This document shows, piece by piece, positions 3,903-47,274 of a DNA stretch of 64,000 nucleotides. Below the pieces are notes generated by a model that was not told where the DNA came from, did no database searches, and was given only the letters and a program-made list of their open reading frames with translations. This stretch comes from Candidatus Sysuiplasma superficiale. GTDB lineage: Archaea > Thermoplasmatota > Thermoplasmata > Sysuiplasmatales > Sysuiplasmataceae. A program made the translations under genes and the position numbers. Numbering within the stretch: position 1 is the stretch's first letter; each line of letters begins with the position of its first letter. The DNA is taken from the NCBI GenBank assembly GCA_019720975.1, contig JAGVSJ010000005.1:11719-75718 (forward strand). Direction: 5' to 3'.

Positions 3903-5348
3903 TCACTTCCTCTTCCTGGACAGGAACACCGCAGCCACCGACAGCGTCACGGTAGTGAAGGCAAGGAAGCCGGCGCTGTCATAAACAGGAATGTATGCCC
4001 TGTCCGTCCTTACATAAGGCGTTTCATGCATTTGGCTGAGGTTCAGAGATGAACTGCCCTCCCTTGCATAGGGAAGTGATTCAAGGGGAAACTGCGGGAC
4101 CATTGGATAGTCGTTTTCAAGTGAGGCAGTAGGAAGAGACCGGAGGCTGAAATGGAGGGAGGAGGGCATCTGAATTCCAGGGAAGGACAGATTTAACGGC
4201 GGCCTCGGCTTTATGCCGGGAACAGATGTAAATGTGAACATATCAATCGGAATGTCTGAGAGGGCCACAAAAGTGTTCAGAGGCGGCATCATCCAGTTGT
4301 AATCAATGAATGCAAGCAGGGATGCGTGGTTCATGACGGTGGATGATACATAATCCTCCTTGGCGTAGGGGGAAACAAGGATGAGCGGTACCCTGAAGCC
4401 AAGCTGTTCCCCCTCAATCCTGGGCGGCGGAATGCTGTCATAGAAGCCTCCTCCTTCGTCATAATTGATGAAAACTGCCGTACTGTTCCACAGCGGACTG
4501 TTCATTATGCTGTGCAGTATGAAGAGTAGCCAGAGTTCGCCTGCAAGCATGTTATCAGACGGGTGCTGACTGAAACCGCTGACTCCGATGCCTATAGGCA
4601 TCAGATAACTCACCGCCGGAAGTGTGCCATTGCGCACCTCGCTGGAAAAGGTGCTCCAGCTGCGAAGGTGGGACTGAAGCGAAGGTATGCCGCTGACGTA
4701 GTCAAGGACAATGGAACCCATCGAAGGGCTGTACACATAGTATGCCCATGAGACACCGTACGAGTCGAGTTCGGAGAATATGGTCTCGGAATATGGGATG
4801 TAAGGGGGTGGCCCGTAGTCATTCATGATAGGGGAAAAGCCGGCGATCTCGTACAGTCTGTTTGGCATCGTGGCGGTAAGCGCGCTTGAGAAGTACATGT
4901 CGGCGATGGCGTACTGTTCGGCAATATCCCATTCTATGGCAAGCTGGGAAGGAGTGTAATAAGTCATGGACTGTTTACCGGAATTTGACGCAAATCCGTT
5001 CATCTTTCCCCCGTTCCAGTCGAGATGATATGCAGTATACCCCTCAACGGGGTCTGGTGTGGCGAAAGTGCCTGAAGGGACAGCAGTGAGTCCGGTCGAA
5101 TGATTTGATGACAGCAGATCCGCCGGCACAGACATTTCGGATGTCAGGTTGCCGTAAAGCGGATTGCCGCCCTCCGGGTAATAGCCGAATATGTTGTCAA
5201 AACTGTGGTTCTCCATGGTGATTATGACAACATGTTTTATGGGCGTCCTGGTTGGGCCGGATGAGGCAGCTGCCGGTGCTGCCGCATATGCCGGAAGCAG
5301 AAGAAGCACCACTGCAATCACAGAAATCAAGGGGTGAAGCGAGGACAT
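3903..5348 (-). CDS. Secreted, C-terminally membrane-anchored phosphoesterase-family protein (phospholipase C / acid phosphatase family)
   Basis: Start set at the internal ATG 5348, which has GGAAGGTGA upstream and gives the signal peptide MSSLHPLISVIAVVLLLLPAYAAAP. Family motif VVIITMENHSFDNIFGYYP. C-terminal TM plus RKRK. The 5' part of the 674-aa track ORF overlaps a better membrane-protein frame. Confidence 0.8.
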   Translation of the reverse strand: MSSLHPLISVIAVVLLLLPAYAAAPAAASSGPTRTPIKHVVIITMENHSFDNIFGYYPEGGNPLYGNLTSEMSVPADLLSSNHSTGLTAVPSGTFATPDPVEGYTAYHLDWNGGKMNGFASNSGKQSMTYYTPSQLAIEWDIAEQYAIADMYFSSALTATMPNRLYEIAGFSPIMNDYGPPPYIPYSETIFSELDSYGVSWAYYVYSPSMGSIVLDYVSGIPSLQSHLRSWSTFSSEVRNGTLPAVSYLMPIGIGVSGFSQHPSDNMLAGELWLLFILHSIMNSPLWNSTAVFINYDEGGGFYDSIPPPRIEGEQLGFRVPLILVSPYAKEDYVSSTVMNHASLLAFIDYNWMMPPLNTFVALSDIPIDMFTFTSVPGIKPRPPLNLSFPGIQMPSSLHFSLRSLPTASLENDYPMVPQFPLESLPYAREGSSSLNLSQMHETPYVRTDRAYIPVYDSAGFLAFTTVTLSVAAVFLSRKRK

Positions 5349-5407
5349 ACGGCTCACCTTCCTTTGACAGGGCGGCAATGAAGGAGATGAAGACGTTCCT
5401 TCATTGT

Positions 5408-5974
5408 CTACGCCGCCCCCGTACTGCCGGCCGGCCTCGACTGCATCTTCCATAAAAACAGGAATGCGAAAGAGAGCAGAGTTGATGCGATGATAATCAG
5501 AGGCATGAACCTGTAGAATAGCGCTATGTAGAACGAAAGAAGGACAGTGGTCATCAGAAGTGATTCCGTACCGAGCAGAAGTACAGTGGAGGGGATTCTG
5601 CGGGAGCTGTATACAGTCCCGCGACAGACCGATGCAGTCAGCAGGTTTCCCGACATGCAGAGTAGGGAGAAGAGCAGGGCTGAGCCGTTTGTGACTATCA
5701 TGTCGTAATGTACCGGCTCGTAGACGGCAGCAAACATCATGAGACACAGAACTCCAGAATAGAGCGCACCCTTCAGTCCGCCGAAATAACGTAGCGTGGA
5801 GAGCGAAGAAAAAAGGAATGAACCGAGAATCAGTCCTCCTATGACGTAGGGTATGGTTTCGGCCGTCCCTACCGAATCCATCAGACCGCTCAGATAGAGG
5901 AAGGAGGTCGCGATGACAGCGCTCCACAGGCTGTAAAACAAAGTATATGAGATACCTGCTGCTCTGCGGTGCAT
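5408..5974 (-). CDS. Hypothetical polytopic membrane protein (about 6 TM)
   Basis: 188 aa with alternating hydrophobic helices. It ends 59 nt upstream of the phosphoesterase start on the same strand. Confidence 0.6.
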   Translation of the reverse strand: MHRRAAGISYTLFYSLWSAVIATSFLYLSGLMDSVGTAETIPYVIGGLILGSFLFSSLSTLRYFGGLKGALYSGVLCLMMFAAVYEPVHYDMIVTNGSALLFSLLCMSGNLLTASVCRGTVYSSRRIPSTVLLLGTESLLMTTVLLSFYIALFYRFMPLIIIASTLLSFAFLFLWKMQSRPAGSTGAA

Positions 5975-6080
5975 TGTGAAGCGCCTGACCTCTTTTTCAT
6001 TATATTTTCTTTATTGCTAACAACTATATTTGTAACAACAAATTTTGTAGTAATGTGTTTATATCCATTGGGATTAGGAG

Positions 6081-6782
6081 ATGCCGGTTATGATGACACT
6101 GAACAGGATGGATGAAACCATCAGCGATGCGCTGAATGAACTGAAAAACGGAAGGATCATACTTCTGCATGATTCGTCCTCGCGCGAGAACGAGACGGAC
6201 ATGGTTGCGTTTGCCGGTTCATGCTCGCCGGAGACAATTTCGTGCATGAGAGAGACGGCAGGGGGACTCATATGTGCAGCCATAGGGAATGAGGTCGCAG
6301 CGAACCTCGGACTTCCGTACATGCATGACATACTTGAAGTCGCCTCATCCAGATACAGTGGACTGCTGTCAATGATAGAGAGAAGGACACCATACGGCGG
6401 CAGACCCGCATTCTCCATTTCTGTCAATCACAGGAATTCATTCACAGGCATAAGCGACATTGAACGAAGCGAGACGATAAGGGAGCTTGGCAGGATTGCC
6501 GGGATTGTCAAATCCGGTGACGATGCGTCGGATGCGTTCTATTCATCATTCAGGTCACCGGGCCACGTCCCCATACTGATAGAGGCAAGAGAGTCGCTCA
6601 GCGAAAGGCGGGGGCACACGGAACTTTCCATAAGACTCGCAAAACTGGCAGGCCTTCCGCCGGCGACGGTCGTTTGCGAGATGCTCGACGGCAGGACACA
6701 CAGGCCGTTGACAGCCGGGGAAGCAAGAAAGATTGCCAGGGCTGAAAATCTCTCCTTTGTTGAGGGAGAACTCATCCGGTGA
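6081..6782 (+). CDS. ribB: 3,4-dihydroxy-2-butanone 4-phosphate synthase
   Basis: 233 aa. Blocks LLHDSSSRENETDMV, GGLICAAI and RGHTELSIRLAKLAG. The start could instead be ATG 6090/6093 (leaderless). Confidence 0.9.
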   Translation: MPVMMTLNRMDETISDALNELKNGRIILLHDSSSRENETDMVAFAGSCSPETISCMRETAGGLICAAIGNEVAANLGLPYMHDILEVASSRYSGLLSMIERRTPYGGRPAFSISVNHRNSFTGISDIERSETIRELGRIAGIVKSGDDASDAFYSSFRSPGHVPILIEARESLSERRGHTELSIRLAKLAGLPPATVVCEMLDGRTHRPLTAGEARKIARAENLSFVEGELIR

Positions 6783-7247
6783 GTGCATTACATGCCTGGA
6801 AGGACAAAGGCACGCGCGGCCATTGTTTGCTCTGAATTCAATGAGGAGATAACATCGAGAATGTTCTCCAGGGCGACAGAGCGATGCAGGGAGAATGGAA
6901 TGGCGGTCACAGCAACATGCATTGTTCCGGGGGCTTTTGACATACCGCTTTTCCTTGACCTGCTTTTATCGAGACGGGATGTTGACTGCGCAATTACGCT
7001 GGGGGCCATAGTGAAGGGCGACACAGACCACGACAGTGTCATAGCCAGAGAGGTTGCGTCCTCGGTGGTCGGATTGTCGCTGAAGCACGGCAAGCCAGTG
7101 GCTCTCGGAATCTCCGGTCCCGGCATGACGTGGGAGCAGGCATCCGATCGGGCCGAGGAATATGCTGTCAGAGCCGCTGATGCTGCCATGAAGATGACGC
7201 TTACGCTGAGGAAGATGCGGCGCGCCCGCAGACGCAATGCCGAATAG
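6783..7247 (+). CDS. ribH: 6,7-dimethyl-8-ribityllumazine synthase
   Basis: 154 aa. Blocks VPGAFDIP and LGAIVKGDTDHDSVIA. The GTG 6783 start abuts the ribB stop (alternative ATG 6792). Confidence 0.9.
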   Translation: MHYMPGRTKARAAIVCSEFNEEITSRMFSRATERCRENGMAVTATCIVPGAFDIPLFLDLLLSRRDVDCAITLGAIVKGDTDHDSVIAREVASSVVGLSLKHGKPVALGISGPGMTWEQASDRAEEYAVRAADAAMKMTLTLRKMRRARRRNAE

Positions 7248-7258
7248 GGTGGTTCCGG

Positions 7259-8545
7259 TTGTTGCACTCCAGCGCCGACACATCCGGCAATGTGATAATA
7301 AGGAATGCGTCAGTCCTTCAAGGTCCGGAATTTGAGTTGAGGAAGAAAATGAACATACTGATCGCCGGCGGAATTATAGCTGACATTGGAGAGAATGAGA
7401 CAGCTGCATACAGGAGAAGGTACGACGGCCTGATCACCATTGACGGAAAGGGGATGCTTGCGATTCCGGGTTTTGTGAACGCACATGTCCATCTCAATGA
7501 TGCCCCGCTGAAGGATGCCGGCGCAGGGATGACTCTGGAAGAGCTTGTCCATCCTGTTACAGGCCTCAAGCGCACCGGTTTGAGCAGACTTGGCAGAGAG
7601 GAGAGGAGGGAGGCCATGAGAAGTGCGGTTGCAGAAATGATCCGCTCCGGAATTACAGACGCAATCGATTTCCATGAAGAGGATTACGGCATAATTGGCG
7701 AGATTTCTTCAGACAATCCACAGTCGTCAATACTGACAGTGCTGGGAAGACCTCAGAGATACTTCACTGAACAGGAGGTGGAGGGCAACGTGCCGCTCAA
7801 CGCAAGAGAATTGTCAGAATTCGCGGAAAGGATTGCACCGTTTGACGGTACCGGGTTGAGCGGGGTGAACGAGTACAGCGACAGCTCAATGGAGCAGATC
7901 AGGCAGTTAAGCGGGAAAAGAATCAGTGCGATACATGCCGCGGAGAGCGTGGCATCGCAGAGCAAATCGATAAAGATGACAGGAAAGACTGAGGTTTTCA
8001 GGGCTGTGAGAAGTTTCAGGCCCGACTTCGTTGTGCATATGACAAACGCAACAGATGACGACATAATGCTTGTAAAGGATGCCGGATGCAGTGCCGTATT
8101 ATGCCCACGGTCCAATTCCATCCTTGGCGTTGGTGTTCCGCCTGTCGAAAAAATGATGCAGGCCGGAATAAATATTGCTCTGGGGACGGACAACATCATG
8201 CTCAATTCCCCTGACATGTTCAGGGAAATGGATTTCATCTCCCGCATCTGCAATGTCAGGGCAGGACGTGCCGGTGTCCTGAAAGACATTGATGCATTGA
8301 GAATGGCGACACTCAACGGCGCAAAACTTGCAAGAAGGAAGGGTGCTGCTGAGTCGGGAAGCATCGTTGTTGGATTCGCAGGGGATATTGTGATGCTCGA
8401 CATGACCACAGAAAGGATGCTGGGAACAAAAAATCCCGTGTCCTCCGTGGTTCACAGAGCAGGCATTGATGAGGTTGTCTGCACGATCAAGTCAGGCAGG
8501 GTCGTCTTTGCCGGAAGTAGAACTGGAACACCCGGGGTGCGATAG
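7259..8545 (+). CDS. Amidohydrolase-superfamily deaminase-like protein (COG0402 / MtaD-SsnA-guanine deaminase branch)
   Basis: 428 aa with a complete signature: IPGFVNAHVHL (HxH), ISAIHAAES (HxxE), FVVHMT, LCPRSN, ALGTDN. It lies 11 nt after ribH and 2 nt before ribE. Confidence 0.85.
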   Translation: MLHSSADTSGNVIIRNASVLQGPEFELRKKMNILIAGGIIADIGENETAAYRRRYDGLITIDGKGMLAIPGFVNAHVHLNDAPLKDAGAGMTLEELVHPVTGLKRTGLSRLGREERREAMRSAVAEMIRSGITDAIDFHEEDYGIIGEISSDNPQSSILTVLGRPQRYFTEQEVEGNVPLNARELSEFAERIAPFDGTGLSGVNEYSDSSMEQIRQLSGKRISAIHAAESVASQSKSIKMTGKTEVFRAVRSFRPDFVVHMTNATDDDIMLVKDAGCSAVLCPRSNSILGVGVPPVEKMMQAGINIALGTDNIMLNSPDMFREMDFISRICNVRAGRAGVLKDIDALRMATLNGAKLARRKGAAESGSIVVGFAGDIVMLDMTTERMLGTKNPVSSVVHRAGIDEVVCTIKSGRVVFAGSRTGTPGVR

Positions 8546-8547
8546 TC

Positions 8548-9147
8548 TTGTTCACCGGCATAGTGGAGGGAACAGCGACAGTCAGGTCTGTTGAACGCCG
8601 GTCTGGCAGTATCAGACTATCGGTGGGCTTCGGAAAGGGCAGGATCGCGTCCATCGGGGACAGCATTGCACTTAACGGCGTTTGCCTGACAGCCGTGAAC
8701 TGCAGGCCTGGGATGGTCGCGTTTGATGTTGTTCCCGAAACACTCAGGAGGACAAACCTTGGCGAACTGCAGAAAGGGGATGCTGTCAACTTTGAACGAA
8801 GCATGAAGAGTTCCGACCTGATCGGGGGCCATATTGTCGCCGGCCATATTGACGGGACAGGCAGGATTGTTTCTGTGGGCAGGGATGGCGGATCTGTGAG
8901 GATGGTGATAAGCGTCCCTCCCGAAATAGGCGAGATGATATCGGACAAGGGCTTCGTTGCGGTTGACGGCGCAAGCCTCACCCCCGCAGAGGTTTCGCGG
9001 AGCGGTTTTACAATCTACCTGATTCCCCAGACGCTCGAAAGGACGGTATTCAAAGAGAGGAGGAAGGGAGACTTAGTAAATATTGAAGTCGATATATTTG
9101 CTAAATATGTGAAGAAATTCGTCGAAGGTCGCCTGAAGGGCAGATGA
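8548..9147 (+). CDS. ribE: Riboflavin synthase, bacterial-type alpha chain
   Basis: 199 aa. The TTG start gives the canonical MFTGIVEG N-terminus. Duplicated barrel blocks GDSIALNGVCLTAV and DKGFVAVDGASLT. Confidence 0.9.
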   Translation: MFTGIVEGTATVRSVERRSGSIRLSVGFGKGRIASIGDSIALNGVCLTAVNCRPGMVAFDVVPETLRRTNLGELQKGDAVNFERSMKSSDLIGGHIVAGHIDGTGRIVSVGRDGGSVRMVISVPPEIGEMISDKGFVAVDGASLTPAEVSRSGFTIYLIPQTLERTVFKERRKGDLVNIEVDIFAKYVKKFVEGRLKGR

Positions 9148-9255
9148 ATCTTCAATGCCGGATTGGCATATGGCATGAATTTCAGACCTCCTCCGACACC
9201 GGTTAAAGGGGCGACTATCATAAGTAATTATCAAAATTCAAAATGAGATGGCAAG

Positions 9256-9263
9256 CTTAAATA
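9256..9263 (+). promoter_or_regulatory. TATA-like box (CTTAAATA) for the wHTH-TPR gene, implying a leaderless mRNA
   Basis: The A/T box is centred about 29 nt upstream of ATG 9289, and there is no SD between them. This matches archaeal promoter geometry. Confidence 0.35.
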
Positions 9264-9288
9264 CAGAAACGTGTGAATTTTTATACAG

Positions 9289-10605
9289 ATGGCTTACGAC
9301 ATAGAGTTCGGCTGCAGGGCACTGATAAACATAATTGTCTCAAGGGAGACAAGGGAGAAGCTGCCGGACAAGGATCTCAGGAAGATACCTGAAAAGACAC
9401 TTCTTGAGTACATAAATGCACTCATAGACCTGGGATGGGTGAAGGAGCAGAAGGGCGTTCCCGAAGACAATGACTATGTCATTTACGCATTCACAGAAAA
9501 GGGAAGAAAGATATACGAGAATCCGGCCGAAATTCTCAACCTTTCCGATACCGAACAGGAACATGTTTCTCTTCTCAGAAGGCTTGATGCGCTGAAGAGG
9601 GATGACAGTGTTTCGATGATGCCCCAGACACTGATGGCCCTGTCGGATCTGTGCCTGGGCATCGGCAGATATGACAGCGCGCTTATTTACGCGATGGAAC
9701 TCAAGAAGAAAGCAGAGGAGTTGAGGAGTGTCTTCTTCGAAGGCGAATCGTCAATCCTGATGGGGAGGATAGAGAACGCGAGGGGAAACCTCGAAACTTC
9801 GCTGAAATACTTCATCAGCGCAACGGATGCGTTCGGCAAGGTAGGTGAGGTCTCGAGGGAAGCCGACAGTCTCCGCTATGCGGGAAGCGTCCTGTTCAAG
9901 ATGGGGGACTACAAGAGAGCGATGATGATGTTTGAGAAGAGTCGTGAGCGGTTTTTCCAGATCAGGAATATGCTTGGTGTTGCGAAGGTGAAAATCAACC
10001 TTGGCATTCTCTATTCGCTCGCAAAGGACTATGCAACTGCTGAAAGATACTGGTTGAATACTCTTGAATTCTTCGAAGCGCTCAATGACATAGAAGAACA
10101 GACACGTGTTCTCAACAATCTCGGGGCCATGCACATCCAGACCGGAAGGTACGGCGATGCGATACCGCTGCTGAGAAAGGCGATCATCCTGGCAAGGCAG
10201 GGCAACAACAAATACTCAGAATGCATAGGCGTACTCAATTTTGCCTATGCTAACTCCAAAATAGGAAACTACGAAATCGCAAAGAAGGCCGTGGACTCAA
10301 TCCAGAACGTTCTCAAAGAGGGTTTCGATGCATATCTGCTCTGTTACAGAGACCTTATAAACGCGATATATCTGACACACAGGGGCACATGGAATGAGGC
10401 GGAAAAGCTGTTCCTGTCGGCAATAAGACTGGCCAACACCTCAGGAAACCTTGAACTGGCAGGGGAATGCCACAAGGAGTTCGGTCTGGCACTGCTGTCG
10501 AAAAATGACAACGAAAGAGCGCAGCAGGAAATCATCGCGTCAAAAAATATTTCATGCAGCATTCCAGGAGAAGAAGTTAAAAAAGGTTTGTCGATCGGCG
10601 CTTAA
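9289..10605 (+). CDS. Tetratricopeptide-repeat protein with N-terminal winged-helix-like domain
   Basis: 438 aa. The N-terminal ~75 aa (LLEYINALIDLGWVKEQ..YAFTEKGRKIY) look wHTH-like. The rest is a series of 34-aa TPR-like units (e.g. GDYKRAMMMFEKS, KDYATAERYWLNTLEFF, GRYGDAIPLLRKAI). GC content is visibly lower than in the neighbouring genes. Confidence 0.7.
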   Translation: MAYDIEFGCRALINIIVSRETREKLPDKDLRKIPEKTLLEYINALIDLGWVKEQKGVPEDNDYVIYAFTEKGRKIYENPAEILNLSDTEQEHVSLLRRLDALKRDDSVSMMPQTLMALSDLCLGIGRYDSALIYAMELKKKAEELRSVFFEGESSILMGRIENARGNLETSLKYFISATDAFGKVGEVSREADSLRYAGSVLFKMGDYKRAMMMFEKSRERFFQIRNMLGVAKVKINLGILYSLAKDYATAERYWLNTLEFFEALNDIEEQTRVLNNLGAMHIQTGRYGDAIPLLRKAIILARQGNNKYSECIGVLNFAYANSKIGNYEIAKKAVDSIQNVLKEGFDAYLLCYRDLINAIYLTHRGTWNEAEKLFLSAIRLANTSGNLELAGECHKEFGLALLSKNDNERAQQEIIASKNISCSIPGEEVKKGLSIGA

Positions 10606-14316: not shown

Positions 14317-15330
14317 TCACAGCGGATAGAGGCGTTCACCGAGCCTAACGGCCCGTATGCTTTCGCCGTTCCGCACGGCCCTTCCGTATCTCAGCACCTC
14401 TTCTGTCATGGTTGACATGTCCACAACTGTTATACGGCCGCCGGTGGATGATTTGACAGTGAGTTGAGTCTCCATTTCCCTTCCTCCTATGAAACGGACT
14501 CTTTCCAGATCCTGGAAGGGCAGGTGCATTCTTCTTCCGCCGGAAAGCGGTTCCAGCACAACACCGCCGGATGTATCAGAGACCCTGTAATGTGCGCCGG
14601 CGTATTCCACATAGTCGCCGGCCGCGAGCATGGGGACTCTCAGAAGATAGGTGGTCCTGTAGATGTTTCTCCCGTCCTTCTGTCCGTAGAGCGAGCGTGT
14701 GGCCACAACCCCCGTGCCAAAATGATGCGCAGCGCTCCTGGCGATAGAATAACCGGCGCTGCTTGAGCTGAGCGTCATGTCCACACCGCCTCTCGTTGAT
14801 CTGATTGAGGACACAAAGAAATCCGGTTCCCTCGCGGCTGTATCAGCGCACAGTTTCCTGACAAATTCCTCGGCGTCAGCCATCAGTTCACTTCTCATCC
14901 TGCCCAGGGCTCTTATCTGTATTGTTGACTCAAAATAATGGCCGCTCCTCCTGCTGCATGTGGGACATGTATTCCTCTGTACCCTGACGTTCACCTCACC
15001 TTCCTCTTTCCTCGTCACGCCGCTGTTTCTTGTCTCGAATGAAACATGAAGCGGAAACGAGTTCTGGTCCTCCCTGAAACCGCTCAGCTCGAAAGAAAGC
15101 ACTGAAGTACCCGGAATGGTCTCAAGCGACTTCCTGACTGCAGAGTAAACGTATTCAATCCTGTCTCCGACTTCGACCCAGTGCTGTCCTTCCCTGAACC
15201 TGCCGCAGGAAGGGCATGTGCTGAAGACAAACGACTGCTGCAGTTTTGCAAATGGCTCTGACTGCGAGTAGCACTCCTCGCAGAAGACCATGCCTCTGAT
15301 GGCCTCTCGACCGCACTTTATGCAGAACAT
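14317..15330 (-). CDS. nmd3: NMD3-family (60S export adaptor homologue) protein
   Basis: 337 aa. Four CxxC pairs (FCIKCG, FCEECY, CPSCG, CPTCSRRSGHYFESTIQIR), including the NMD3-typical yyE..iQiR block. Confidence 0.75.
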   Translation of the reverse strand: MFCIKCGREAIRGMVFCEECYSQSEPFAKLQQSFVFSTCPSCGRFREGQHWVEVGDRIEYVYSAVRKSLETIPGTSVLSFELSGFREDQNSFPLHVSFETRNSGVTRKEEGEVNVRVQRNTCPTCSRRSGHYFESTIQIRALGRMRSELMADAEEFVRKLCADTAAREPDFFVSSIRSTRGGVDMTLSSSSAGYSIARSAAHHFGTGVVATRSLYGQKDGRNIYRTTYLLRVPMLAAGDYVEYAGAHYRVSDTSGGVVLEPLSGGRRMHLPFQDLERVRFIGGREMETQLTVKSSTGGRITVVDMSTMTEEVLRYGRAVRNGESIRAVRLGERLYPL

Positions 15331-15361
15331 ACCGGAGTCTTTATCACGGCTGACCGGTTAA

Positions 15362-16306
15362 TTAATCTTTATGATGCGCGGGGAAATCAAATGGAATTAC
15401 ATCGCTTGCCTCGTTGGTCCAGCTCTCGGGTGTCGGGGCGCCCCAGAAGGTCTGGCGCCTTGGGTCGTGCACAGACCACCTGACAGGCTGAAGGTCAGGG
15501 TCTGCTGCCATGTAGTCTCCCGTATACAGCTCTATCCTGTGCCTGTCCGAGTCCCTCAGATAGAGAAAGAATGCGTTTGTAATCCCATGCCTTCCCGGAC
15601 CCCTTTCGATGCTGCGGAAATATCCCGATGAGGAGAGTATATCTGCGCAGTCGAGTATGCTGTCCCTGTCGGAAACAATGAAACCTGCATGATGGAAGCG
15701 CGGCCCATGCCCGCGCATTACAGCTATGTCATGGCTGGACTGCTTTCTCCTCAGCCACGCCGCCTGCATGCTGCCGTCGTCATCTTCAGTGAATTCCGAT
15801 AGTGCAAAATGAAGCTTCTCAACGTACCACTTCACAGTTCCAGCGACATCGGGCACGAGCACGTTGAAGTGGTCGATGCGCATTATCCTGCCGCCATGAT
15901 GCGAATGGTATTTCTGCAGTTCCCATTCCACCGCATCTGTACGGTAGAATAATTCCACAGGGAAGCCAGAGGGATCCTGGAAGCGGAGAGAAGGACCGAT
16001 ACCCTTCTCCTCCCCCTCCGCCAGCGAATGACGGATGCCCTCGGCCTCAAGGAATCTTTCTGCCTTCTTCATATCCAGTTCCGAGCGGAGTCTGAATGCC
16101 ATGTGCGAAAGGCCGGGCCTCCTCCCTTCTGTAAGAACGAGCGAATGATGTGTCCTGTCTTCTATCCCCCTGAGGTACACTCTGCTGCCCTCGGAAGCCG
16201 TTTCAACCATGCCCAGAGTTGCAGAATAGTACCTTCTTGCCTCATCAATGTCGGTCACGACATATTCGATATGTGATGCCCTGACGATATCGAACGGGGC
16301 ATCCAT
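15362..16306 (-). CDS. hpaD: Homoprotocatechuate (3,4-dihydroxyphenylacetate) 2,3-dioxygenase, type I extradiol
   Basis: Start set at ATG 16306, 4 nt after the hpaB stop. Blocks RIDHFNVLVPDV, GPRFHHAGF and ERGPGRHGITNAFFLYLRDSDRHRIELYT match the HPCD/MndD family closely. Confidence 0.88.
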   Translation of the reverse strand: MDAPFDIVRASHIEYVVTDIDEARRYYSATLGMVETASEGSRVYLRGIEDRTHHSLVLTEGRRPGLSHMAFRLRSELDMKKAERFLEAEGIRHSLAEGEEKGIGPSLRFQDPSGFPVELFYRTDAVEWELQKYHSHHGGRIMRIDHFNVLVPDVAGTVKWYVEKLHFALSEFTEDDDGSMQAAWLRRKQSSHDIAVMRGHGPRFHHAGFIVSDRDSILDCADILSSSGYFRSIERGPGRHGITNAFFLYLRDSDRHRIELYTGDYMAADPDLQPVRWSVHDPRRQTFWGAPTPESWTNEASDVIPFDFPAHHKD

Positions 16307-16310
16307 CCGT

Positions 16311-17768
16311 TCAGTCCTCCCTGTCCAGAAAATCGCTGACCATTTTCCTGAAATGGGATGTGTCATACCAGGAGTAAAATGCACTGGCCATCCTCACAGG
16401 GTCGCCGAAGAAGAATCTTTCATACATCTCCTGCCTTGAGCCGAAGGAGCTGCCGGCTATGTCCCACGCAAGCTTGAACAGCCTGATTCTCTCCTCGGCA
16501 CCGGAATTCTTTCCCTGGTAATATGTGTCTATATAGTGCCTGATCTCGCTTTCCATGTCTGCGGAGGAGGGCATTGCCATCAGGCCGCTGGCTCCAAGCT
16601 GCTGAAGCGTTTCCCTGATAGAAGGATAGAGGCGCGGATAGACGTTCCTGGCTACATTGAGATACTTGAAGCGCGGTGTCATTATGCCCCAGCTGTTCAG
16701 CTCCGCCTCCTGCTCTGATGCAATCAGCAAGGCCCGCAACGATTCCAGTATCATTTCGATCCTTGCAACCTTCTCCTGCACATGCTGGAACTGCCCGATA
16801 CCGATTGTTTCCACCATAAGGGAGACAACACCGAGAATGAATTCTGTCTTTGCTATCTCACGTGTAACCACCTGATGCGACATGTGCACAACAGCATCCG
16901 TCCGCTCGTGCAGCACATTTGCCCTTTCTGCATCCTCAAGCAGAAAGATACGCTCACGGGGAACGAAGACATCATCGAAGACAACAACAGCATCCATCTC
17001 CTCGAATCCGTAGGCAAGTGGATGATCGAACCTTGAATCGGAGCAGAAGGGCTCCCTGCAGAGAAACTTCAGGCCTGGAGAGTCGACAGGTATTGCGAAG
17101 GCCATTGAATACGGCAAATCCTCCGGTCCAGACTTTATCACAGTGGAGGGGAAAACAATTATTTCGTCTGCTAGAGGAAAGGTTGCGAGCATCCTTGCGC
17201 CCCTTACCACTATGCCGTCCCTTCTCTTCTCCACTATCCTCGCGGCAATGAACGGATCCTTCTGCTTCGATGGCGGTGCCGACCTGTTTGTCTGAGGGTT
17301 TATCAGGGTGTGAGTCATCAGAAGGTCATTCTCCCTCACGTATGTGTAGTAATTGACAATGTTTTCGCCGAATGAAGGGTCGGCGAGGGAAAAGAATCTT
17401 GAGGCGGAGGCCATCGCCATGATGTCGCTGTTGAGGTAATCCGGCGTTCTGCCCAGCATGCCGCCGGAGTAATCCGCCCAGCGCTTCATCATACGCCTTC
17501 TCCTAAGGAGGTCCTCTCTTGTTACGGGTTGAAGAAAACTCATTCCCACCCTGTCACCCGTGGAGGGGGAGACATATGTCATCTCATCCTCAAGTTCCGG
17601 GTCGCACTGCATGTCATAAAGTTTTGACATGGTGACAGCCATCTGTCTGAAGGCGGGATGTTCGGTGATGCCTGTTGTTATCTTTCTTCCACCGATCCAC
17701 ACCTCCCTCCTTGTTCTGTCAAGATCGTCCAAATACTTTCTGCCGTTCCTGACTGGCAAATTTATCAC
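16311..17768 (-). CDS. hpaB: 4-hydroxyphenylacetate 3-monooxygenase, oxygenase component (HpaB family)
   Basis: 485 aa. HpaB-type N-terminus (GRKYLDDL..REVWIGGRKI..ITEHPAF) and family-wide collinear blocks. Confidence 0.88.
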   Translation of the reverse strand: MINLPVRNGRKYLDDLDRTRREVWIGGRKITTGITEHPAFRQMAVTMSKLYDMQCDPELEDEMTYVSPSTGDRVGMSFLQPVTREDLLRRRRMMKRWADYSGGMLGRTPDYLNSDIMAMASASRFFSLADPSFGENIVNYYTYVRENDLLMTHTLINPQTNRSAPPSKQKDPFIAARIVEKRRDGIVVRGARMLATFPLADEIIVFPSTVIKSGPEDLPYSMAFAIPVDSPGLKFLCREPFCSDSRFDHPLAYGFEEMDAVVVFDDVFVPRERIFLLEDAERANVLHERTDAVVHMSHQVVTREIAKTEFILGVVSLMVETIGIGQFQHVQEKVARIEMILESLRALLIASEQEAELNSWGIMTPRFKYLNVARNVYPRLYPSIRETLQQLGASGLMAMPSSADMESEIRHYIDTYYQGKNSGAEERIRLFKLAWDIAGSSFGSRQEMYERFFFGDPVRMASAFYSWYDTSHFRKMVSDFLDRED

Positions 17769-17788
17769 CTGTTCATATCCACTTCATC

Positions 17789-19318
17789 TTATTTAGAGGA
17801 TCCAGTGGTCTTCGCTCCCCCGCCCCGGACAGAAGAGCCGAAACGCGGTATCCTGTGCCTTCCAAGAGAGACATGAACCGTTTTCTCCTCCATGTAGAAA
17901 TCGAAGCTGTACCTTCCGCCCTCCCTGCCTATGCCGCTGCATTTCATGCCACCGAACGGTGTTCTCAGGTCGCGCACATTATGCGAGTTTATCCAGCAGA
18001 GACCTGCATCGAGCGCTGATGCCACCCTGTGTGCCCTCCCTATGTCCCTGCTCCACACATATGAGGCAAGACCGTACTGCGTGTCGTTTGCGATGGATAT
18101 TGCCTCTGCTTCATCTGAAAAACGCAGTGCGACGAGAACAGGTCCGAATATCTCCTCCCTCGCAATCTTCATACTGTTATCGACCTCAGTGAAGAGCGTC
18201 GGCTCCAGATAGTTTCCCTCGCGCAATCCTGCAGGTCTCCGTCCCCCCTGAAGGAGAACGGCTCCTTCCTCTTTGCCTGATTCAATGTAACCCATCACCC
18301 TCTTCAAATGTTCAGGATGGATCAGCGGGCCTATCTCCGTCTGTTCGTCGAGAGGGTCACCTATGGTTATGTTTCCGATCCTTTCAGCAACCGCATTCAC
18401 AAAGTCATCGTATATTGAATCCTGTAGCAGCAGCCTCGAATTCGCCGTGCACCTCTCACCGTTCAGCGAATAGACACCGAATATGACTGCATCGACAGCC
18501 CTTTCAATGTCAGCATCCTCAAAGACAACAGCAGGCGATTTGCCGCCTAGTTCCATTGAAAAACGTTTGAGTGTGGATGCACCGTTTCTCATTATTTCCA
18601 TTCCCGTGACCGTTTCCCCAGTGAATGATATGAGCCTCACTCCCGGATGCGACACAAGAGAGGCACCCGCTGTTTCACCAAACCCATGGACGAGGTTGAA
18701 CACTCCCTTTGGAAGGGATGTTCCGTCGATGAGCTCAGCAAGCCTTGAGGCAGTCAATGGCGACCATTCAGCAGGCTTCAGCACGCAGGTATCGCCTGCA
18801 GCGAGGCAGGGTGCTATCTTCCAGGTTTCGAGCATAAGCGGCGTATTCCATGGAGTGATCAGGCCGGCAACACCTGCAGGCCTCTTTTCCGTGTAGTTTA
18901 CAAATTCGCCTCTGAATGGAAAGGATTGGCCTGATATCTCCGTTGCCATGTCTGCAAAGAAGCGGAAGTTTTCCGCCGCTCTCGCGACCTGGCCCCTTGT
19001 CTGCCTGACAGGTATGCCTGTGTCAATTGCTTCCAGGACTGAGAGCTCCTCTGCATTCTCATCAATTGCGTCAGCAATCTCATTCAGAACGTTTCCTCTG
19101 TCCTCAGCATCCACGTCCCTCCACCCATGCCCTTCGAAGGCCTTTGAAGCCGAAGCAACTGCATCGTCTATATCGTCTGAGTCGCCCGAAGGAATCCTTG
19201 CAATAACAGAATTATCGGAAGGAGATATGTCCTCAAAGTATTCTCCGTTCCTGGACACAACAAAACGGCCGCCGATGTAGTGCTTCGCCGGCCGGTTAGT
19301 TAACCTTTCAGCTGACAT
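17789..19318 (-). CDS. hpaE: NAD-dependent aldehyde dehydrogenase, probably 5-carboxymethyl-2-hydroxymuconate semialdehyde dehydrogenase
   Basis: Start set at ATG 19318 (GGAGGAAAAGA upstream). ALDH motifs ELGGKSP and GERCTANSRLL. It ends 20 nt upstream of hpaB. The substrate assignment comes from context only. Confidence 0.8.
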   Translation of the reverse strand: MSAERLTNRPAKHYIGGRFVVSRNGEYFEDISPSDNSVIARIPSGDSDDIDDAVASASKAFEGHGWRDVDAEDRGNVLNEIADAIDENAEELSVLEAIDTGIPVRQTRGQVARAAENFRFFADMATEISGQSFPFRGEFVNYTEKRPAGVAGLITPWNTPLMLETWKIAPCLAAGDTCVLKPAEWSPLTASRLAELIDGTSLPKGVFNLVHGFGETAGASLVSHPGVRLISFTGETVTGMEIMRNGASTLKRFSMELGGKSPAVVFEDADIERAVDAVIFGVYSLNGERCTANSRLLLQDSIYDDFVNAVAERIGNITIGDPLDEQTEIGPLIHPEHLKRVMGYIESGKEEGAVLLQGGRRPAGLREGNYLEPTLFTEVDNSMKIAREEIFGPVLVALRFSDEAEAISIANDTQYGLASYVWSRDIGRAHRVASALDAGLCWINSHNVRDLRTPFGGMKCSGIGREGGRYSFDFYMEEKTVHVSLGRHRIPRFGSSVRGGGAKTTGSSK

Positions 19319-19695
19319 TCTTTTCCTCCGCGGATGCGTTGGAAGATACGTGGTGTTCCACTCTAAAATTGTTCGTATGCCACGGGATGCCATTTGAGAT
19401 GCAATCCTGCTGTTCAACTCACCTCCGCAATCCAGTACTCCGGGGAGGCTGAAATATTGCAGGGAAAGCCTCCTGCATCTGACGGGCACGCTGATGCGGG
19501 CAGCAAACTAAACAGCTGTTTTCCCAACTGTGGCCACATCCTGCAGTATTTCGTTTCACCGTTCGCGGAGGGTGCTTCTCACTTCCATCGAAAGGTGCCC
19601 GGCCATTCTCCTCTAACAGGTAAAACTCCTGCACCCTGGCGTTCGCTTTGCTGCGGGCTGCAATCACCTTCTGAACCTGTCGCCGCCTCTTCCCT

Positions 19696-20388
19696 TCATT
19701 TTGGCCTTTCCGGGTAGACAAGCACAATGCCAGTGCCAACGGAGGCGGCAACGAGAGCGAATGGTCCGATGACGGCGTACCAGGGAACAAAATCCAGCCC
19801 CTGCGTATCCACAGTTATCACCTCGCCGGTTGACTGGACAAATGGCTTCGAAGCGGCAATTGTCCGGAATGAAAATGACTGGGCATAGCCGCCCGGCGCT
19901 GATGGAGAAAGCAGGGAGAATGAAAGCGTGGAATTACTTCCTGGCGTGGCGTTCGCAGGCACGTACACGTCTATGACGTCTGAAAAGCTGCTGCCGGAAT
20001 AAAGAGTGAAAGCGGTGTGCTCAATGGAGTAAGTCCATCCACCTGGTCCTGTGAAATTTATATCAGCGATTGAAAGGGGTATGGCCCTGTAACCGTCCCT
20101 TGCGCTGAAATTGATGTAGTAGGTTGCGGGAGTACCGCTGGTCTGAACAAGGCTTGTTGCACTGGTTGACTGTGTTATTGATGTCGGTGTGAGGAACAGG
20201 TAGCCTACGAAGACCAGACAAACAAGGACCACAACAGCTACTATGTCCAGTATCTCGATTCTCACGTTCACGGGTGGAAATAGCCAGCTATTAATTAATG
20301 TCTTCTGTCTGTTTGGGGGATTGCCGCAAAAAAAGGGTGAAAGCAGTTTGGTAAAAGGTTTGGGGAGTCGTATAGCATGAATGCTCAT
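19696..20388 (-). CDS. Hypothetical bitopic envelope protein (N-terminal TM, beta-rich ectodomain, C-terminal TM)
   Basis: 230 aa. The ATG overlaps the stop of the upstream giant gene (ATGA 20385-20388). TM segments are ILDIVAVVVLVCLVFVGYLF and AVIGPFALVAASVGTGIVLV. The ectodomain carries N-x-S/T sequons. Confidence 0.6.
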   Translation of the reverse strand: MSIHAIRLPKPFTKLLSPFFCGNPPNRQKTLINSWLFPPVNVRIEILDIVAVVVLVCLVFVGYLFLTPTSITQSTSATSLVQTSGTPATYYINFSARDGYRAIPLSIADINFTGPGGWTYSIEHTAFTLYSGSSFSDVIDVYVPANATPGSNSTLSFSLLSPSAPGGYAQSFSFRTIAASKPFVQSTGEVITVDTQGLDFVPWYAVIGPFALVAASVGTGIVLVYPERPK

Positions 20389-23147: not shown

Positions 23148-23159
23148 GGCGTGTTACCC

Positions 23160-23888
23160 TCAGCCCGAACCTGCGGTTCCGCCGGCCGTACCGCTGTGCT
23201 CACTGGCCTTCTGCCTCGCCTCAATGTCTACCTTCAGCTGTTGGATCTCTGAATTAACCTTTTCCATTCTTGCCTTGAGCTTCATCCTGTAGCTGTCATT
23301 ACGGTAGATTATGGAGTCGTAGTCACTCTGAGTTATCTCATTCTTTGCTATACGGGTTTTACTCCCCTGTTCTATCATATCACATATTCTCAATTCCTCC
23401 TCCAGTTTCTCCTTCTCCTTCGTGAGTATAAGGAGCTTCTTTGACAGTCTGCTGATCTCGGTTTCGGCGACAACGGGCTCAGCAGTCTTTGCACCCTCAA
23501 TCAGAGAGAGCACACCAGAATCAGCCAGTCCCCCAACTGCACCGCCTGTCAGGGAAAGTATGATAAAAAATACCATTGTGAATATCTCCTGCGAAGAGCC
23601 GGAGCTTGCGACATAGGGCGAAACGGTGGAACGAAAGGGAACCATCGCGAGTGGGTAGTACATGAAAAACCTCTGCCAGTAGAGAAGCGCACCGATAGCT
23701 GTCAGCGAGAAAATGAATACCATTGCGAATGGTGATGACCTGCGGATGCGCGGACTGAAGATGCCTCCGGCCACTGCGGATGCGAGAAACACTGACGGAT
23801 ATGCGGGTGAGGGCAGAAAATAATACATTAGAGAGAGAGCCAGAACTGCACAAGCTACACCAGCAACTACCCTGTATGCAGTTTTCAT
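23160..23888 (-). CDS. Hypothetical membrane protein with C-terminal coiled coil
   Basis: 242 aa with about 4-5 TM helices. These are followed by a heptad-rich segment (ISRLSKKLLILTKEKEKLEEELRICD .. KLKARMEKVNSEIQQLKVDIEARQKA) and a G/T/A-rich tail. It ends 12 nt upstream of the giant surface gene. Confidence 0.6.
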   Translation of the reverse strand: MKTAYRVVAGVACAVLALSLMYYFLPSPAYPSVFLASAVAGGIFSPRIRRSSPFAMVFIFSLTAIGALLYWQRFFMYYPLAMVPFRSTVSPYVASSGSSQEIFTMVFFIILSLTGGAVGGLADSGVLSLIEGAKTAEPVVAETEISRLSKKLLILTKEKEKLEEELRICDMIEQGSKTRIAKNEITQSDYDSIIYRNDSYRMKLKARMEKVNSEIQQLKVDIEARQKASEHSGTAGGTAGSG

Positions 23889-24049
23889 ATCCGGACGGCT
23901 CCGAGCCTGATGATATAGGCGTTCTTCCGCATCCCCTTGGCCGGATGGACAGCAGCCAGCATTCAGGCACGCAGTCCTATCAACATTGATAATTTATAAA
24001 TTGTGGTCAGAAAGTTCATCCAATGGCCGCCGGCCACAAGTCTGGCATT

Positions 24050-24457: not shown

Positions 24458-24500
24458 TGGATTGCCTCATATGGACATCCTACTTAAGTTCAGTGCACAT

Positions 24501-25691: not shown

Positions 25692-25812
25692 GTGTCATCC
25701 CTCTCTGCCTTCAGGATGGCTGATGCAGGCATCGGGCATCTGTTTCATCGTGGAGGGCGGGGCTGCAGGCACCGGCCCGCACGGCTGCGATGATGAAATC
25801 GGACTCACCGAC

Positions 25813-26787: not shown

Positions 26788-26885
26788 TTACTCTCCCTCT
26801 GGCAGAAAGGACACACCGGAGATAAATAATAACTTGCAGCATTCTGGTCACCGTGAGCCGTGGCACACAACAGTGCAACTTTCCG

Positions 26886-47264: not shown

Positions 47265-47274
47265 TTATAATTTT
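47265..47274 (+). promoter_or_regulatory. TATA-like box (TTATAATTTT) upstream of the first KaiC-like gene
   Basis: Centred about 31 nt upstream of ATG 47301 with no SD between, suggesting a leaderless or near-leaderless transcript. Confidence 0.3.

What the first reader, a model, noticed from the sequence alone, without database searches (positions are those of the whole stretch)
7259..8545. Deaminase-fold amidohydrolase embedded in the riboflavin operon: candidate for the unassigned archaeal pyrimidine deaminase step
The four genes ribB (6081-6782), ribH (6783-7247), X (7259-8545) and ribE (8548-9147) have spacers of 0, 11 and 2 nt, so X is almost certainly co-expressed with riboflavin genes. 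X has every signature of the cytosine/guanine/MTA-deaminase branch of the amidohydrolase superfamily: NAHVHL, IHAAES, VVHMT, CPRSN and LGTDN. Archaea use the reduce-then-deaminate route. As far as I know, the deaminase acting on 2,5-diamino-6-ribitylamino-4(3H)-pyrimidinone 5'-phosphate is still unassigned in many archaea that lack a RibD deaminase domain. No CMP/dCMP-deaminase-type gene is present in this window. A ring-deaminase fold in exactly this position is therefore a specific hypothesis. The competing explanation is an MtaD/DadD-type 5'-deoxyadenosine/MTA deaminase located here by chance.
Basis: partly seen in the sequence, partly recalled or inferred. Interest (0 to 1): 0.65.

Follow-up and report, generated by a model that had tools for sequence, protein, structure and literature searches.

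The report
Predicted archaeal riboflavin pyrimidine deaminase gene

Summary
ribB (6081-6782), ribH (6783-7247), X (7259-8545) and ribE (8548-9147) lie on one strand with spacers of 0, 11 and 2 nt.

- X belongs to the same family as M. jannaschii MJ0699: 31% identity over the full length, E 4e-50. Both have NCBIfam NF005552 as their top model, and the family separates from MTA deaminases and AtzA with 98% bootstrap support.
- X scores far below the cut-offs of the MtaD, DadD and guanine-deaminase models.
- In all 86 related loci examined, the homologue sits inside riboflavin operons of four different layouts.
- In Nitrososphaerota it lies between arfA and a reductase-only arfC, in an operon that holds every other known archaeal pathway enzyme except the phosphatase.

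The idea is already published. Rodionova et al. 2017 (citing Osterman et al. 2010) name this candidate "PyrD". Pfeiffer and Dyall-Smith 2021 list MJ0699/HVO_2483 as an unconfirmed prediction, and some GenBank records already read "Pyrimidine deaminase archaeal predicted". I found no report of a biochemical test.

X is therefore a new, divergent Thermoplasmata member of a known predicted family. A conserved RbkR-like operator and TATA box precede ribB.

The parts
6018..6053 (+). Candidate RbkR operator. Site 1 is TAACAACTATATTTGTAA (6018-6035), one mismatch from the published TTAC-N10-GTAA consensus. It overlaps a second imperfect palindrome, TAACAACAAATTTTGTAGTAA (6033-6053).
   Evidence: The motif was found and read. 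The core ACAACAA..TTGTAGTAA is invariant in five syntenic Thermoplasmata relatives. The consensus comes from Rodionova 2017. The window-wide motif count equals chance (8 found, 8.06 expected), so only position and conservation support it. Binding by RbkR is inferred.
6058..6064 (+). TATA-box-like TTTATAT, 4 nt after the operator and 17 nt before the annotated ribB ATG.
   Evidence: TTTATA is invariant in the alignment of six upstream regions. The spacing matches the roughly 5 nt operator-to-TATA distance reported in PMC5397151. Promoter function is inferred. With this TATA position the real ribB start may be ATG 6090 or 6093, giving a leaderless mRNA.
6081..6782 (+). [quoted passage not shown]
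   Evidence: PF00926 4.2e-50. TIGR00506 scores 189 bits, above its cut-off of 177.
6783..7247 (+). ribH, 6,7-dimethyl-8-ribityllumazine synthase.
   Evidence: PF00885 2.5e-34. TIGR00114 scores 113 bits, above its cut-off of 84.6.
7259..8545 (+). X: an amidohydrolase-superfamily metal-dependent deaminase of the MJ0699/'PyrD' family (NCBIfam NF005552). Predicted 2,5-diamino-6-ribitylamino-4(3H)-pyrimidinone 5'-phosphate deaminase.
   Evidence: Family scans. Homology to MJ0699. Phylogeny. Conserved operon context. Catalytic residues. Predicted fold.
8548..9147 (+). ribE, riboflavin synthase of the bacterial/eukaryotic (lumazine-binding) type, not the archaeal RibC type.
   Evidence: PF00677 3.6e-46. 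NF006767 scores 212 bits, above its cut-off of 155.

Best explanation
X is the archaeal pyrimidine deaminase of riboflavin (and F420 precursor) biosynthesis.

**Proposed mechanism.** X is a (beta/alpha)8-barrel amidohydrolase with one divalent metal held by H76, H78, H226 and D311. The metal activates water. E229 (from the HxxE motif) and H260 shuttle protons. Hydroxide attacks C2 of 2,5-diamino-6-(5-phospho-D-ribitylamino)pyrimidin-4(3H)-one, the product of the ArfC reductase. Ammonia leaves, giving 5-amino-6-(5-phospho-D-ribitylamino)uracil. After dephosphorylation, that product is condensed by RibH with the RibB product, and RibE converts the resulting lumazine to riboflavin.

The target, a 2-amino group on a 4-oxopyrimidine ring, is chemically the same as in guanine, isocytosine and pterin. 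All of those are deaminated by enzymes of this same superfamily branch.

Family-only invariant residues, including four basic ones (K104, R164, R284, R400), are proposed to bind the ribityl phosphate.

The four genes are probably transcribed together from a TATA box preceded by an RbkR-type operator.

**What is shown:** gene order, family membership, the catalytic residue set, the predicted fold, and conserved operon context.

**What is inferred:** substrate, metal ligation, phosphate binding, co-transcription and RbkR control.
For: 1. **Tight junctions.** Spacers of 0, 11 and 2 nt join X to ribB, ribH and ribE.

2. **Conserved context.** All 86 related loci place the homologue next to rib genes, in four layouts:
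- Thermoplasmata: ribB-ribH-X-ribE.
- Nitrosopumilus: ribE-ribB-ribH-arfA-X-arfC.
- Nitrososphaerales: ribB-ribH-arfA-X-arfC-arfB-ribE, with overlapping reading frames.
- Hecatella: X-arfC.
In the Nitrososphaerales layout, X is the only gene without an assigned step, and the deaminase is the only catalytic step without a gene apart from the phosphatase.

3. **No competing deaminase in the operon.** The operon RibD homologues have only PF01872, so no CDA-type deaminase domain is present there.

4. **Catalytic residues.** The deaminase set H-x-H, H-x-x-E, H and D is invariant in 22 diverse family members.

5. **Fold.** The AF2 model (pLDDT 89.9, pTM 0.91) matches metal-dependent ring deaminases at TM about 0.8. 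These include isocytosine deaminase Vcz and guanine deaminases.

6. **Same family as MJ0699.** X and MJ0699 share 31% identity over the full length, E 4e-50. Both have NF005552 as their top model. MJ0699 is the published 'PyrD' candidate, and its M. lauensis orthologues are deposited as 'Pyrimidine deaminase archaeal predicted'.

7. **Separate clade.** The family splits from MTA deaminases and AtzA with 98% bootstrap support.

8. **Regulatory element.** A conserved RbkR-like operator and TATA box lie upstream of ribB. PyrD is reported in RbkR regulons of 15 genomes.
Against: - No member of the family has a published enzymatic or genetic test that I could find. Everything rests on guilt by association plus fold chemistry.
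- X reaches the NF005552 cut-off only marginally (294.7 against 294). Its closest relatives fall just below it: P0002 at 285.5 and P0021 at 269.8. The Thermoplasmata clade is therefore divergent.
- Linkage is not universal. In Methanobacterium (L087) and in a Thermoplasmatales MAG (L088) the homologue is not next to rib genes.
- The 86 loci are phylogenetically redundant. 74 or more are Nitrosopumilaceae, so the number of independent lineages is about four to six.
- In the window, arfA, arfB and arfC are absent, so the upstream half of the pathway in this organism is unseen.
- Clustering with rib genes can also reflect damage control or salvage rather than biosynthesis.
Confidence: 0.77

Rival explanations
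1. X is an MtaD/DadD-type nucleoside deaminase, acting on 5'-methylthioadenosine, 5'-deoxyadenosine, SAH or adenosine, that happens to sit in the rib operon.
For: It has the same superfamily and the same catalytic motifs. The best PDB matches by sequence and by fold are MTA/adenosine deaminases 4gbd, 4dyk, 4dzh and 4f0r.
Against: - Those matches share only 22-24% identity.
- X scores 101 bits against the 522 cut-off on the DadD model, and 48 against 779 on the MtaD model.
- The family separates from MTA deaminases in 98% of bootstraps.
- The Glu of the CPESN motif in MTA deaminases is an invariant Arg in this family.
- Chance placement cannot explain conservation inside four differently arranged rib operons across two phyla.
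Confidence: 0.03
2. X is the pathway deaminase but acts in the bacterial order, on the ribosyl intermediate 2,5-diamino-6-ribosylamino-pyrimidinone 5'-phosphate (EC 3.5.4.26) before reduction, at least in Thermoplasmata or Nitrososphaerota. Alternatively, it accepts both forms.
For: The reduce-first order was established only for M. jannaschii and fungi (cited). This lineage uses a bacterial-type RibE. In the operons X precedes arfC, although gene order is weak evidence.
Against: The operon reductases are ArfC-like stand-alone RibD_C proteins. MJ0671-type reductases act on the non-deaminated substrate (literature cited). No data exist for these lineages.
Confidence: 0.1
3. X hydrolyses a different bond in the pathway. 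For example, it could be a formamide hydrolase replacing ArfB, or a bifunctional deformylase/deaminase, in lineages whose rib operon lacks a creatininase-type arfB.
For: - The Nitrosopumilus and Thermoplasmata operons contain X but no creatininase-family arfB.
- ArfB is known to have non-orthologous replacements. One is BrbF, described in PMC9478397 as a cyclic-amide hydrolase family member. Another is the haloarchaeal HVO_1235 candidate.
Against: In Nitrososphaerales operons X and a creatininase-type ArfB coexist, so X is not simply ArfB's substitute. The HxxE-containing active site is the signature of the deaminase branch.
Confidence: 0.04
4. X is a damage-control or salvage enzyme that deaminates a reactive or off-pathway pyrimidine or pterin by-product of riboflavin/F420 synthesis. 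On this reading it is not a biosynthetic step.
For: Metabolite-repair genes are known to cluster with rib genes in other organisms (general knowledge, not tested here). Relatives in this superfamily branch deaminate pterins, 8-oxoguanine and isocytosine.
Against: This would leave the essential deaminase step without any candidate in operons that otherwise contain the whole pathway. The family is broadly distributed in riboflavin-prototrophic archaea according to PMC5397151.
Confidence: 0.05

Closest known systems
MJ0699 / HVO_2483 family: 'PyrD' of Rodionova et al. 2017, SEED role 'Pyrimidine deaminase archaeal predicted', NCBIfam NF005552 (PRK07213 'chlorohydrolase')
   Same: - Full-length homology: 31% identity, E 4e-50.
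- Same top NCBIfam model.
- Same clade.
- Same invariant catalytic and family-specific residues.
- Same habit of clustering with rib genes and lying behind RbkR-type sites.
   Different: - X belongs to a divergent Thermoplasmata subclade, about 40-50 residues longer than the Methanococcales proteins.
- X scores 294.7 bits where MJ0699 scores 589.
- Its operon is ribB-ribH-X-ribE with a bacterial-type RibE and no arfA or arfC.
- The family's function is itself only predicted.
RibD N-terminal domain / yeast Rib2 deaminase (CMP/dCMP-deaminase fold; EC 3.5.4.26 and the Rib2 reaction)
   Same: It is the proposed same pathway step. With Rib2, it is the proposed same substrate, the ribityl form reached after reduction.
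   Different: The fold is unrelated: the zinc-dependent CDA fold with its H/C-A-E and PCxxC motifs, against a TIM-barrel amidohydrolase. X has no PF00383 domain. If the prediction is right, this is a non-orthologous displacement.
Amidohydrolase-superfamily ring deaminases of the COG0402 branch: MTA/SAH deaminases (4f0r, 4gbd, TM0936), guanine deaminase, isocytosine deaminase Vcz (7ww2), 8-oxoguanine deaminase, AtzA/TrzN
   Same: The predicted fold matches at TM about 0.8. The metal-binding and proton-shuttle residues are in register: HxH, HxxE, H and D. Guanine, isocytosine and pterin deaminases attack the same 2-amino-4-oxopyrimidine moiety.
   Different: - Only 17-28% identity.
- Far below every curated equivalog cut-off.
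- A separate clade.
- Family-specific substitutions: D81, K104, F138, E140, R164, R284 (Glu in MTA deaminases), N312 (Gly in MTA deaminases) and R400.

Membership tests
MJ0699/'PyrD' predicted archaeal pyrimidine deaminase (NCBIfam NF005552) | Scores at or above the curated cut-off of NF005552, and that model is the best hit by a wide margin. | tested here: met
   X scores 294.7 bits against a cut-off of 294, and the next model scores 127 bits. This is marginal: close relatives P0002 (285.5) and P0021 (269.8) fall just below, while MJ0699 scores 589.
MJ0699/'PyrD' predicted archaeal pyrimidine deaminase (NCBIfam NF005552) | End-to-end homology with MJ0699 (Q58110). | tested here: met
   BLASTP gives 31% identity and E 4e-50, aligning X residues 13-407 with MJ0699 residues 5-371.
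MJ0699/'PyrD' predicted archaeal pyrimidine deaminase (NCBIfam NF005552) | Monophyly with MJ0699 to the exclusion of characterised superfamily deaminases. | tested here: met
   In an NJ tree of 26 sequences and 381 columns, the family/outgroup split appears in 98% of 500 bootstraps. The outgroups were limited to 4f0r, 4dyk, 3lnp and 4v1x. DadD and guanine deaminase were excluded only by HMM scores.
MJ0699/'PyrD' predicted archaeal pyrimidine deaminase (NCBIfam NF005552) | Frequent chromosomal clustering with riboflavin genes, which is the criterion used in the literature. | tested here: met
   The window shows it, as do all 86 related loci. Exceptions exist elsewhere in the family (L087 and L088).
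MJ0699/'PyrD' predicted archaeal pyrimidine deaminase (NCBIfam NF005552) | Phylogenomic co-occurrence with the archaeal pathway and absence of a RibD deaminase domain in the same genomes. | not testable with these tools
I rely on the statement in PMC5397151.
MJ0699/'PyrD' predicted archaeal pyrimidine deaminase (NCBIfam NF005552) | Deaminase activity on 2,5-diamino-6-ribitylamino-pyrimidinone 5'-phosphate. | not testable with these tools
   This needs an experiment. No published assay for any member was found.
Amidohydrolase superfamily, mononuclear-metal deaminase branch (COG0402 type) | HxH after strand 1, His and an HxxE glutamate at strand 5, His at strand 6, and Asp at strand 8. | tested here: met
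   H76, H78, H226, E229, H260 and D311 are invariant in 19 and in 22 family sequences. They align with the same residues of 4f0r, 4dyk, 4v1x and 3lnp.
Amidohydrolase superfamily, mononuclear-metal deaminase branch (COG0402 type) | (beta/alpha)8 barrel with a composite beta-sandwich formed from the N and C termini. | tested here: met
   The AF2 model has pLDDT 89.9 and pTM 0.91. Foldseek gives TM 0.78-0.82 to 4gbd, 4dzh, 4v1x and 7ww2. This is a predicted structure, not a solved one.
MtaD / DadD (MTA, SAH and 5'-deoxyadenosine deaminases) | Reaches the curated equivalog cut-offs (NF005557 DadD, NF012037 MtaD) and groups with the characterised members. | tested here: not met
   X scores 101.4 against 522, and 48.2 against 779. 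It never groups with the MTA deaminase clade, which has 100% support on its own.
Guanine deaminase (TIGR02967) | Reaches the curated cut-off. | tested here: not met
   X scores 65.7 bits against 375.4, and only the C-terminal third aligns.
RibD/Rib2 CDA-fold pyrimidine deaminase | CMP/dCMP-deaminase zinc-binding domain (PF00383). | tested here: not met
   X matches only PF01979 and PF07969. It may work like RibD-N/Rib2, but it is not a member of that family.

The most novel reading that the evidence does not exclude
The MJ0699/X family really is the missing archaeal deaminase. That would make it a TIM-barrel amidohydrolase that replaced the CDA-fold RibD/Rib2 deaminase. The divergent Thermoplasmata subclade represented by X would then have a distinct specificity, for example accepting the ribosyl as well as the ribityl intermediate, or also covering the ArfB deformylation in operons that lack a creatininase-type arfB. 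Its setting is a compact ribB-ribH-X-ribE operon with bacterial-type RibE and no arfA, arfB or arfC nearby. The first half alone would close a pathway gap that has been open since the archaeal route was described, but it has been predicted in print since 2010.
Probability: 0.08. Interest if true: 0.6.

Novelty: new member of a known kind. Interest (0 to 1): 0.3.

Why it matters
The deamination step is one of the last steps of archaeal riboflavin (and F420 precursor) synthesis without an experimentally proven enzyme. The other is the phosphatase.

The evidence gathered here strengthens the existing prediction in three ways:
- X-family genes are embedded in complete arfA-X-arfC-arfB rib operons.
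- The family forms a clean clade apart from nucleoside deaminases.
- It carries a family-specific set of basic active-site residues.

The work also supplies a new, divergent candidate for assay from Thermoplasmata. Confirmation would establish a non-orthologous displacement of the CDA-fold deaminase by an amidohydrolase. It would also correct thousands of 'chlorohydrolase' and 'cytosine deaminase-related' annotations. As a discovery it is a rediscovery, and the value lies in making the test concrete.

Tried and rejected
- **Rodionova 2017 supplement.** I looked for the table of PyrD locus tags, but it is not held. The link to MJ0699 therefore went through a profile search of representatives, cluster look-ups and a second homologue search seeded with the Methanotorris protein.
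- **Failed look-up.** The Methanocaldococcus fervens protein P0301 is not on record for contig retrieval, so the Methanocaldococcus gene context was not seen.
- **Discarded bootstrap value.** The first tree gave a family support of 53. I discarded it because Biopython counts rooted clades. I recomputed it as an unrooted split and obtained 98%.
- **RbkR motif count.** The window-wide count of TTAC-N10-GTAA with one mismatch equals chance: 8 found, 8.06 expected. The motif count alone is no evidence. Only its position and its conservation in relatives count.
- **Rfam.** A scan of 5700-9400 found nothing above gathering score, so there is no FMN riboswitch.
- **Solved structures.** No family member has a solved structure.
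- **Genome scan.** The genome-collection scan with a single sequence was dominated by Nitrosopumilus. An alignment query would have sampled more lineages.
- **Phosphoesterase.** I considered whether the divergent phosphoesterase (3903-5927) could be the missing phosphatase. I rejected it as unlikely because it carries a signal peptide and belongs to the PF04185 family.
- **HVO_2483.** It was not retrieved. Its relation to MJ0699 (34% identity) is taken from PMC8305020.
Full report
**Observation.**
Pfam and NCBIfam identify them as follows:
- 6081-6782 is RibB (PF00926, 4e-50).
- 6783-7247 is RibH (PF00885, 2.5e-34).
- 8548-9147 is a bacterial-type riboflavin synthase RibE (PF00677, 3.6e-46).
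- X, 7259-8545, is an amidohydrolase (PF01979, 3e-35).

The junctions read from the sequence give spacers of 0, 11 and 2 nt. A GGTGG lies in the 11-nt spacer. The start of X is ambiguous between TTG 7259, TTG 7262 and GTG 7292; the 99%-identical database protein uses 7262. The motifs NAHVHL, IHAAES, VVHMT, CPRSN and LGTDN are all present.

The rest of the window is archaeal: MCM, Tsr3, NMD3, exosome Csl4 and a proteasome subunit. Among 58 ORFs scanned it contains no other riboflavin gene and no CMP/dCMP-type deaminase. That last point carries little weight, because 64 kb is a few per cent of a genome.

**What X is by sequence and fold.**
The best NCBIfam model is NF005552 (PRK07213, 'chlorohydrolase'), at 294.7 bits against a curated cut-off of 294. 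The next model scores 127 bits. The models for characterised enzymes are far from their cut-offs:
- DadD: 101 against 522.
- MtaD: 48 against 779.
- Guanine deaminase: 66 against 375.
- 8-oxoguanine deaminase: 96 against 532.

No solved structure belongs to the family. The nearest PDB sequences are MTA/adenosine deaminases and AtzA, at E about 1e-25 for X alone and up to 3e-46 with a family profile.

An AlphaFold2 model built on a 19-sequence alignment is confident (pLDDT 89.9, pTM 0.91). It superposes at TM about 0.8, with 17-24% identity, on MTA/adenosine deaminases, AtzA/TrzN, isocytosine deaminase Vcz, TM0936 and guanine deaminases.

The mononuclear-metal deaminase residues are invariant in the family and in register with the solved enzymes: H76, H78, H226, E229, H260 and D311. 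Residues invariant only in this family are D81, K104, F138, E140, R164, R284, P294, N312 and R400. R284 replaces the Glu of the CPESN motif of MTA deaminases, and N312 replaces their Gly. That these four basic residues bind the substrate's phosphate is my inference. I could not inspect coordinates.

**Context elsewhere.**
Homologues at 43-50% identity from Thermoplasmata and Methanomassiliicoccales MAGs have the same ribB-ribH-X-ribE block. They also share the wider synteny of methyltransferase, Csl4, SHMT, PIN, phosphoesterase and, downstream, a TPR gene.

In Nitrososphaerota the homologue (35-40% identity) lies in ribB-ribH-arfA-X-arfC-arfB-ribE, with start and stop overlaps on both sides of X. 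The RibD homologue there has only the reductase domain PF01872 and is 220-232 aa long. That operon contains every known enzyme of the archaeal pathway. X is its only unassigned gene, and the deaminase is its only unassigned catalytic step apart from the phosphatase.

A tblastn survey of all 86 fetched loci found rib genes adjacent to the homologue in every one, in four layouts. Besides the two above, these are ribE-ribB-ribH-arfA-X-arfC in Nitrosopumilus and X-arfC in Hecatella.

Two caveats apply. At least 74 of the loci are Nitrosopumilaceae, so the independent lineages number about four to six. Linkage is also not universal: the Methanobacterium and one Thermoplasmatales homologue are not near rib genes.

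**Link to the literature.**
Rodionova et al. 2017 (PMC5397151) state three things:
[quoted passage not shown] - The prediction remained to be tested. They list PyrD in RbkR regulons of 15 genomes.

Pfeiffer and Dyall-Smith 2021 (PMC8305020) list HVO_2483, 34% identical to MJ0699 (Q58110), as that candidate and say it requires experimental confirmation.

Neither paper states the fold, so I tested whether MJ0699 is X's family.
- A profile search of 1.8 billion representatives gave 1,996 clusters at E <= 1e-30.
- One representative is the Methanotorris igneus protein WP_013798840.
- A search seeded with it recovered the Methanococcales and Methanobacteriales members.
- A cluster look-up showed that P0403 is AAB98692.1 = Q58110 = 'Uncharacterized protein MJ0699', originally named 'atrazine chlorohydrolase isolog'.
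- The same look-up showed that the Methanocaldococcus lauensis orthologues are deposited as 'Pyrimidine deaminase archaeal predicted'.

X aligns with MJ0699 end to end: 31% identity, E 4e-50. MJ0699 scores 589 bits on NF005552. All ten diverse family members tested have that model as top hit, although the Thermoplasmata relatives of X fall just under its cut-off.

In a neighbour-joining tree of 22 family members and four characterised outgroups, the family/outgroup split is found in 98% of 500 bootstraps. X groups with the Thermoplasmata sequences in 82%.

Seven full-text searches found no enzymatic or genetic test of any member. The library covers only open-access PMC and bioRxiv, so a test published elsewhere cannot be excluded.

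**Mechanism proposed.**
*Shown:* family membership, catalytic residues, predicted fold and operon context.

*Inferred:*
- X binds one divalent metal through H76, H78, H226 and D311.
- With E229 and H260 as proton shuttles, it hydrolytically removes the 2-amino group of 2,5-diamino-6-(5-phospho-D-ribitylamino)pyrimidin-4(3H)-one, the ArfC product. This yields 5-amino-6-(5-phospho-D-ribitylamino)uracil.
- The chemistry is that of the guanine, isocytosine and pterin deaminases of the same branch, which act on the same 2-amino-4-oxopyrimidine moiety.
- The reduce-then-deaminate order is taken from the M. jannaschii work cited. It is not established for Thermoplasmata or Nitrososphaerota.

**Regulation.**
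Upstream of ribB lies TAACAACTATATTTGTAA (6018-6035), one mismatch from the Thermoplasmata/Thaumarchaeota RbkR consensus TTAC-N10-GTAA reported in PMC5397151. It overlaps a second palindrome (6033-6053) and is followed 4 nt later by TTTATAT (6058-6064).

The window-wide motif count is at chance. However, the element and the TATA box are conserved in five syntenic relatives, two of which match the consensus perfectly. No Rfam family, and hence no FMN riboswitch, is present. RbkR control and co-transcription of the four genes are inferences.

**Rivals.**
- *A misplaced MtaD/DadD.* This is rejected by HMM scores, phylogeny, the E-to-R change in the ribose-binding motif, and conserved context.
- *The bacterial order of steps.* X could be the deaminase but act on the ribosyl intermediate. 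This remains open.
- *An ArfB-like deformylase role.* This is suggested only by the absence of creatininase-type arfB from some operons. It is contradicted by the coexistence of X and ArfB in others.
- *A damage-control role.* This would leave the essential step without a gene in otherwise complete operons.

**Verdict.**

It is a rediscovery of a prediction that is in the literature and already in some database annotations. What is new is modest: a divergent Thermoplasmata member at the edge of the curated model, a compact operon with bacterial-type RibE, quantified operon evidence, a family signature and a candidate operator. The biochemical question remains open and is directly testable.

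Noticed in passing
window 6018-6064: A tandem palindromic element resembling the published RbkR operator (TTAC-N10-GTAA), followed by a TATA box, lies just upstream of ribB. It is conserved in five syntenic Thermoplasmata relatives. With this TATA position the true ribB start may be ATG 6090 or 6093, giving a leaderless transcript.
   Followed up: partly
window 7259-7294: The start codon of X is ambiguous: TTG 7259, TTG 7262 (used by the 99%-identical protein P0001) or GTG 7292. Residues 1-8 of the model have pLDDT below 50.
   Followed up: partly
window 3903-5927 (- strand): A PF04185 phosphoesterase with an apparent signal peptide is divergently oriented from ribB and syntenic in relatives L081-L083. 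The mechanically listed 674-aa ORF probably starts too far upstream, since the relatives are 440-498 aa. It is unlikely to be the missing riboflavin-pathway phosphatase.
   Followed up: no
L084 2078-2812 (-), 3098-5775, 11699-12364: Three features flank the complete rib operon in a Nitrososphaerota MAG. One is an HTH_3 + DMRL_synthase fusion protein, possibly a lumazine- or flavin-sensing regulator. The second is cofG/cofH (F0 synthase). The third, immediately downstream, is a HAD hydrolase, which is a candidate for the still-missing pathway phosphatase.
   Followed up: no
window 14317-28422 (- strand): A block of catabolic genes: HpaB-type 4-hydroxyphenylacetate 3-hydroxylase, an extradiol dioxygenase, an aldehyde dehydrogenase, then acyl-CoA dehydrogenase, 3-hydroxyacyl-CoA dehydrogenase, and a thiolase with its OB-fold partner. 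This suggests aromatic or fatty-acid degradation in this Thermoplasmata lineage.
   Followed up: no
window 42859-52448: A 1407-aa GAF/HisKA/HATPase sensor kinase, three consecutive KaiC-like ATPase genes (47301-50032) and a stand-alone response regulator (51221-51604).
   Followed up: no
window 52435-59242: A glycogen-type cluster: GT5 starch/glycogen synthase, a sugar-nucleotidyltransferase, a truncated-looking phosphoglucomutase domain I protein and a GH57 branching enzyme.
   Followed up: no
window 20385-23147 (- strand): A 920-aa ORF with no Pfam match at E <= 1e-5. The neighbouring ORFs 19696-20388 and 23160-23888 are also unmatched.
   Followed up: no
L039; proteins P0094 and P0438: Archaeal-type rib operons or X homologues sit on contigs binned as bacteria (Phycisphaerae, Methylomirabilota, Actinomycetota). 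The L039 operon is Nitrosopumilus-like, so mis-binning is the likely cause.
   Followed up: no
L087 1415-7152: In Methanobacterium sp. SMA-27 the family member lies directly after carA-carB (carbamoyl-phosphate synthase) and before serS, not with rib genes. Linkage to the pathway is lineage-dependent.
   Followed up: no
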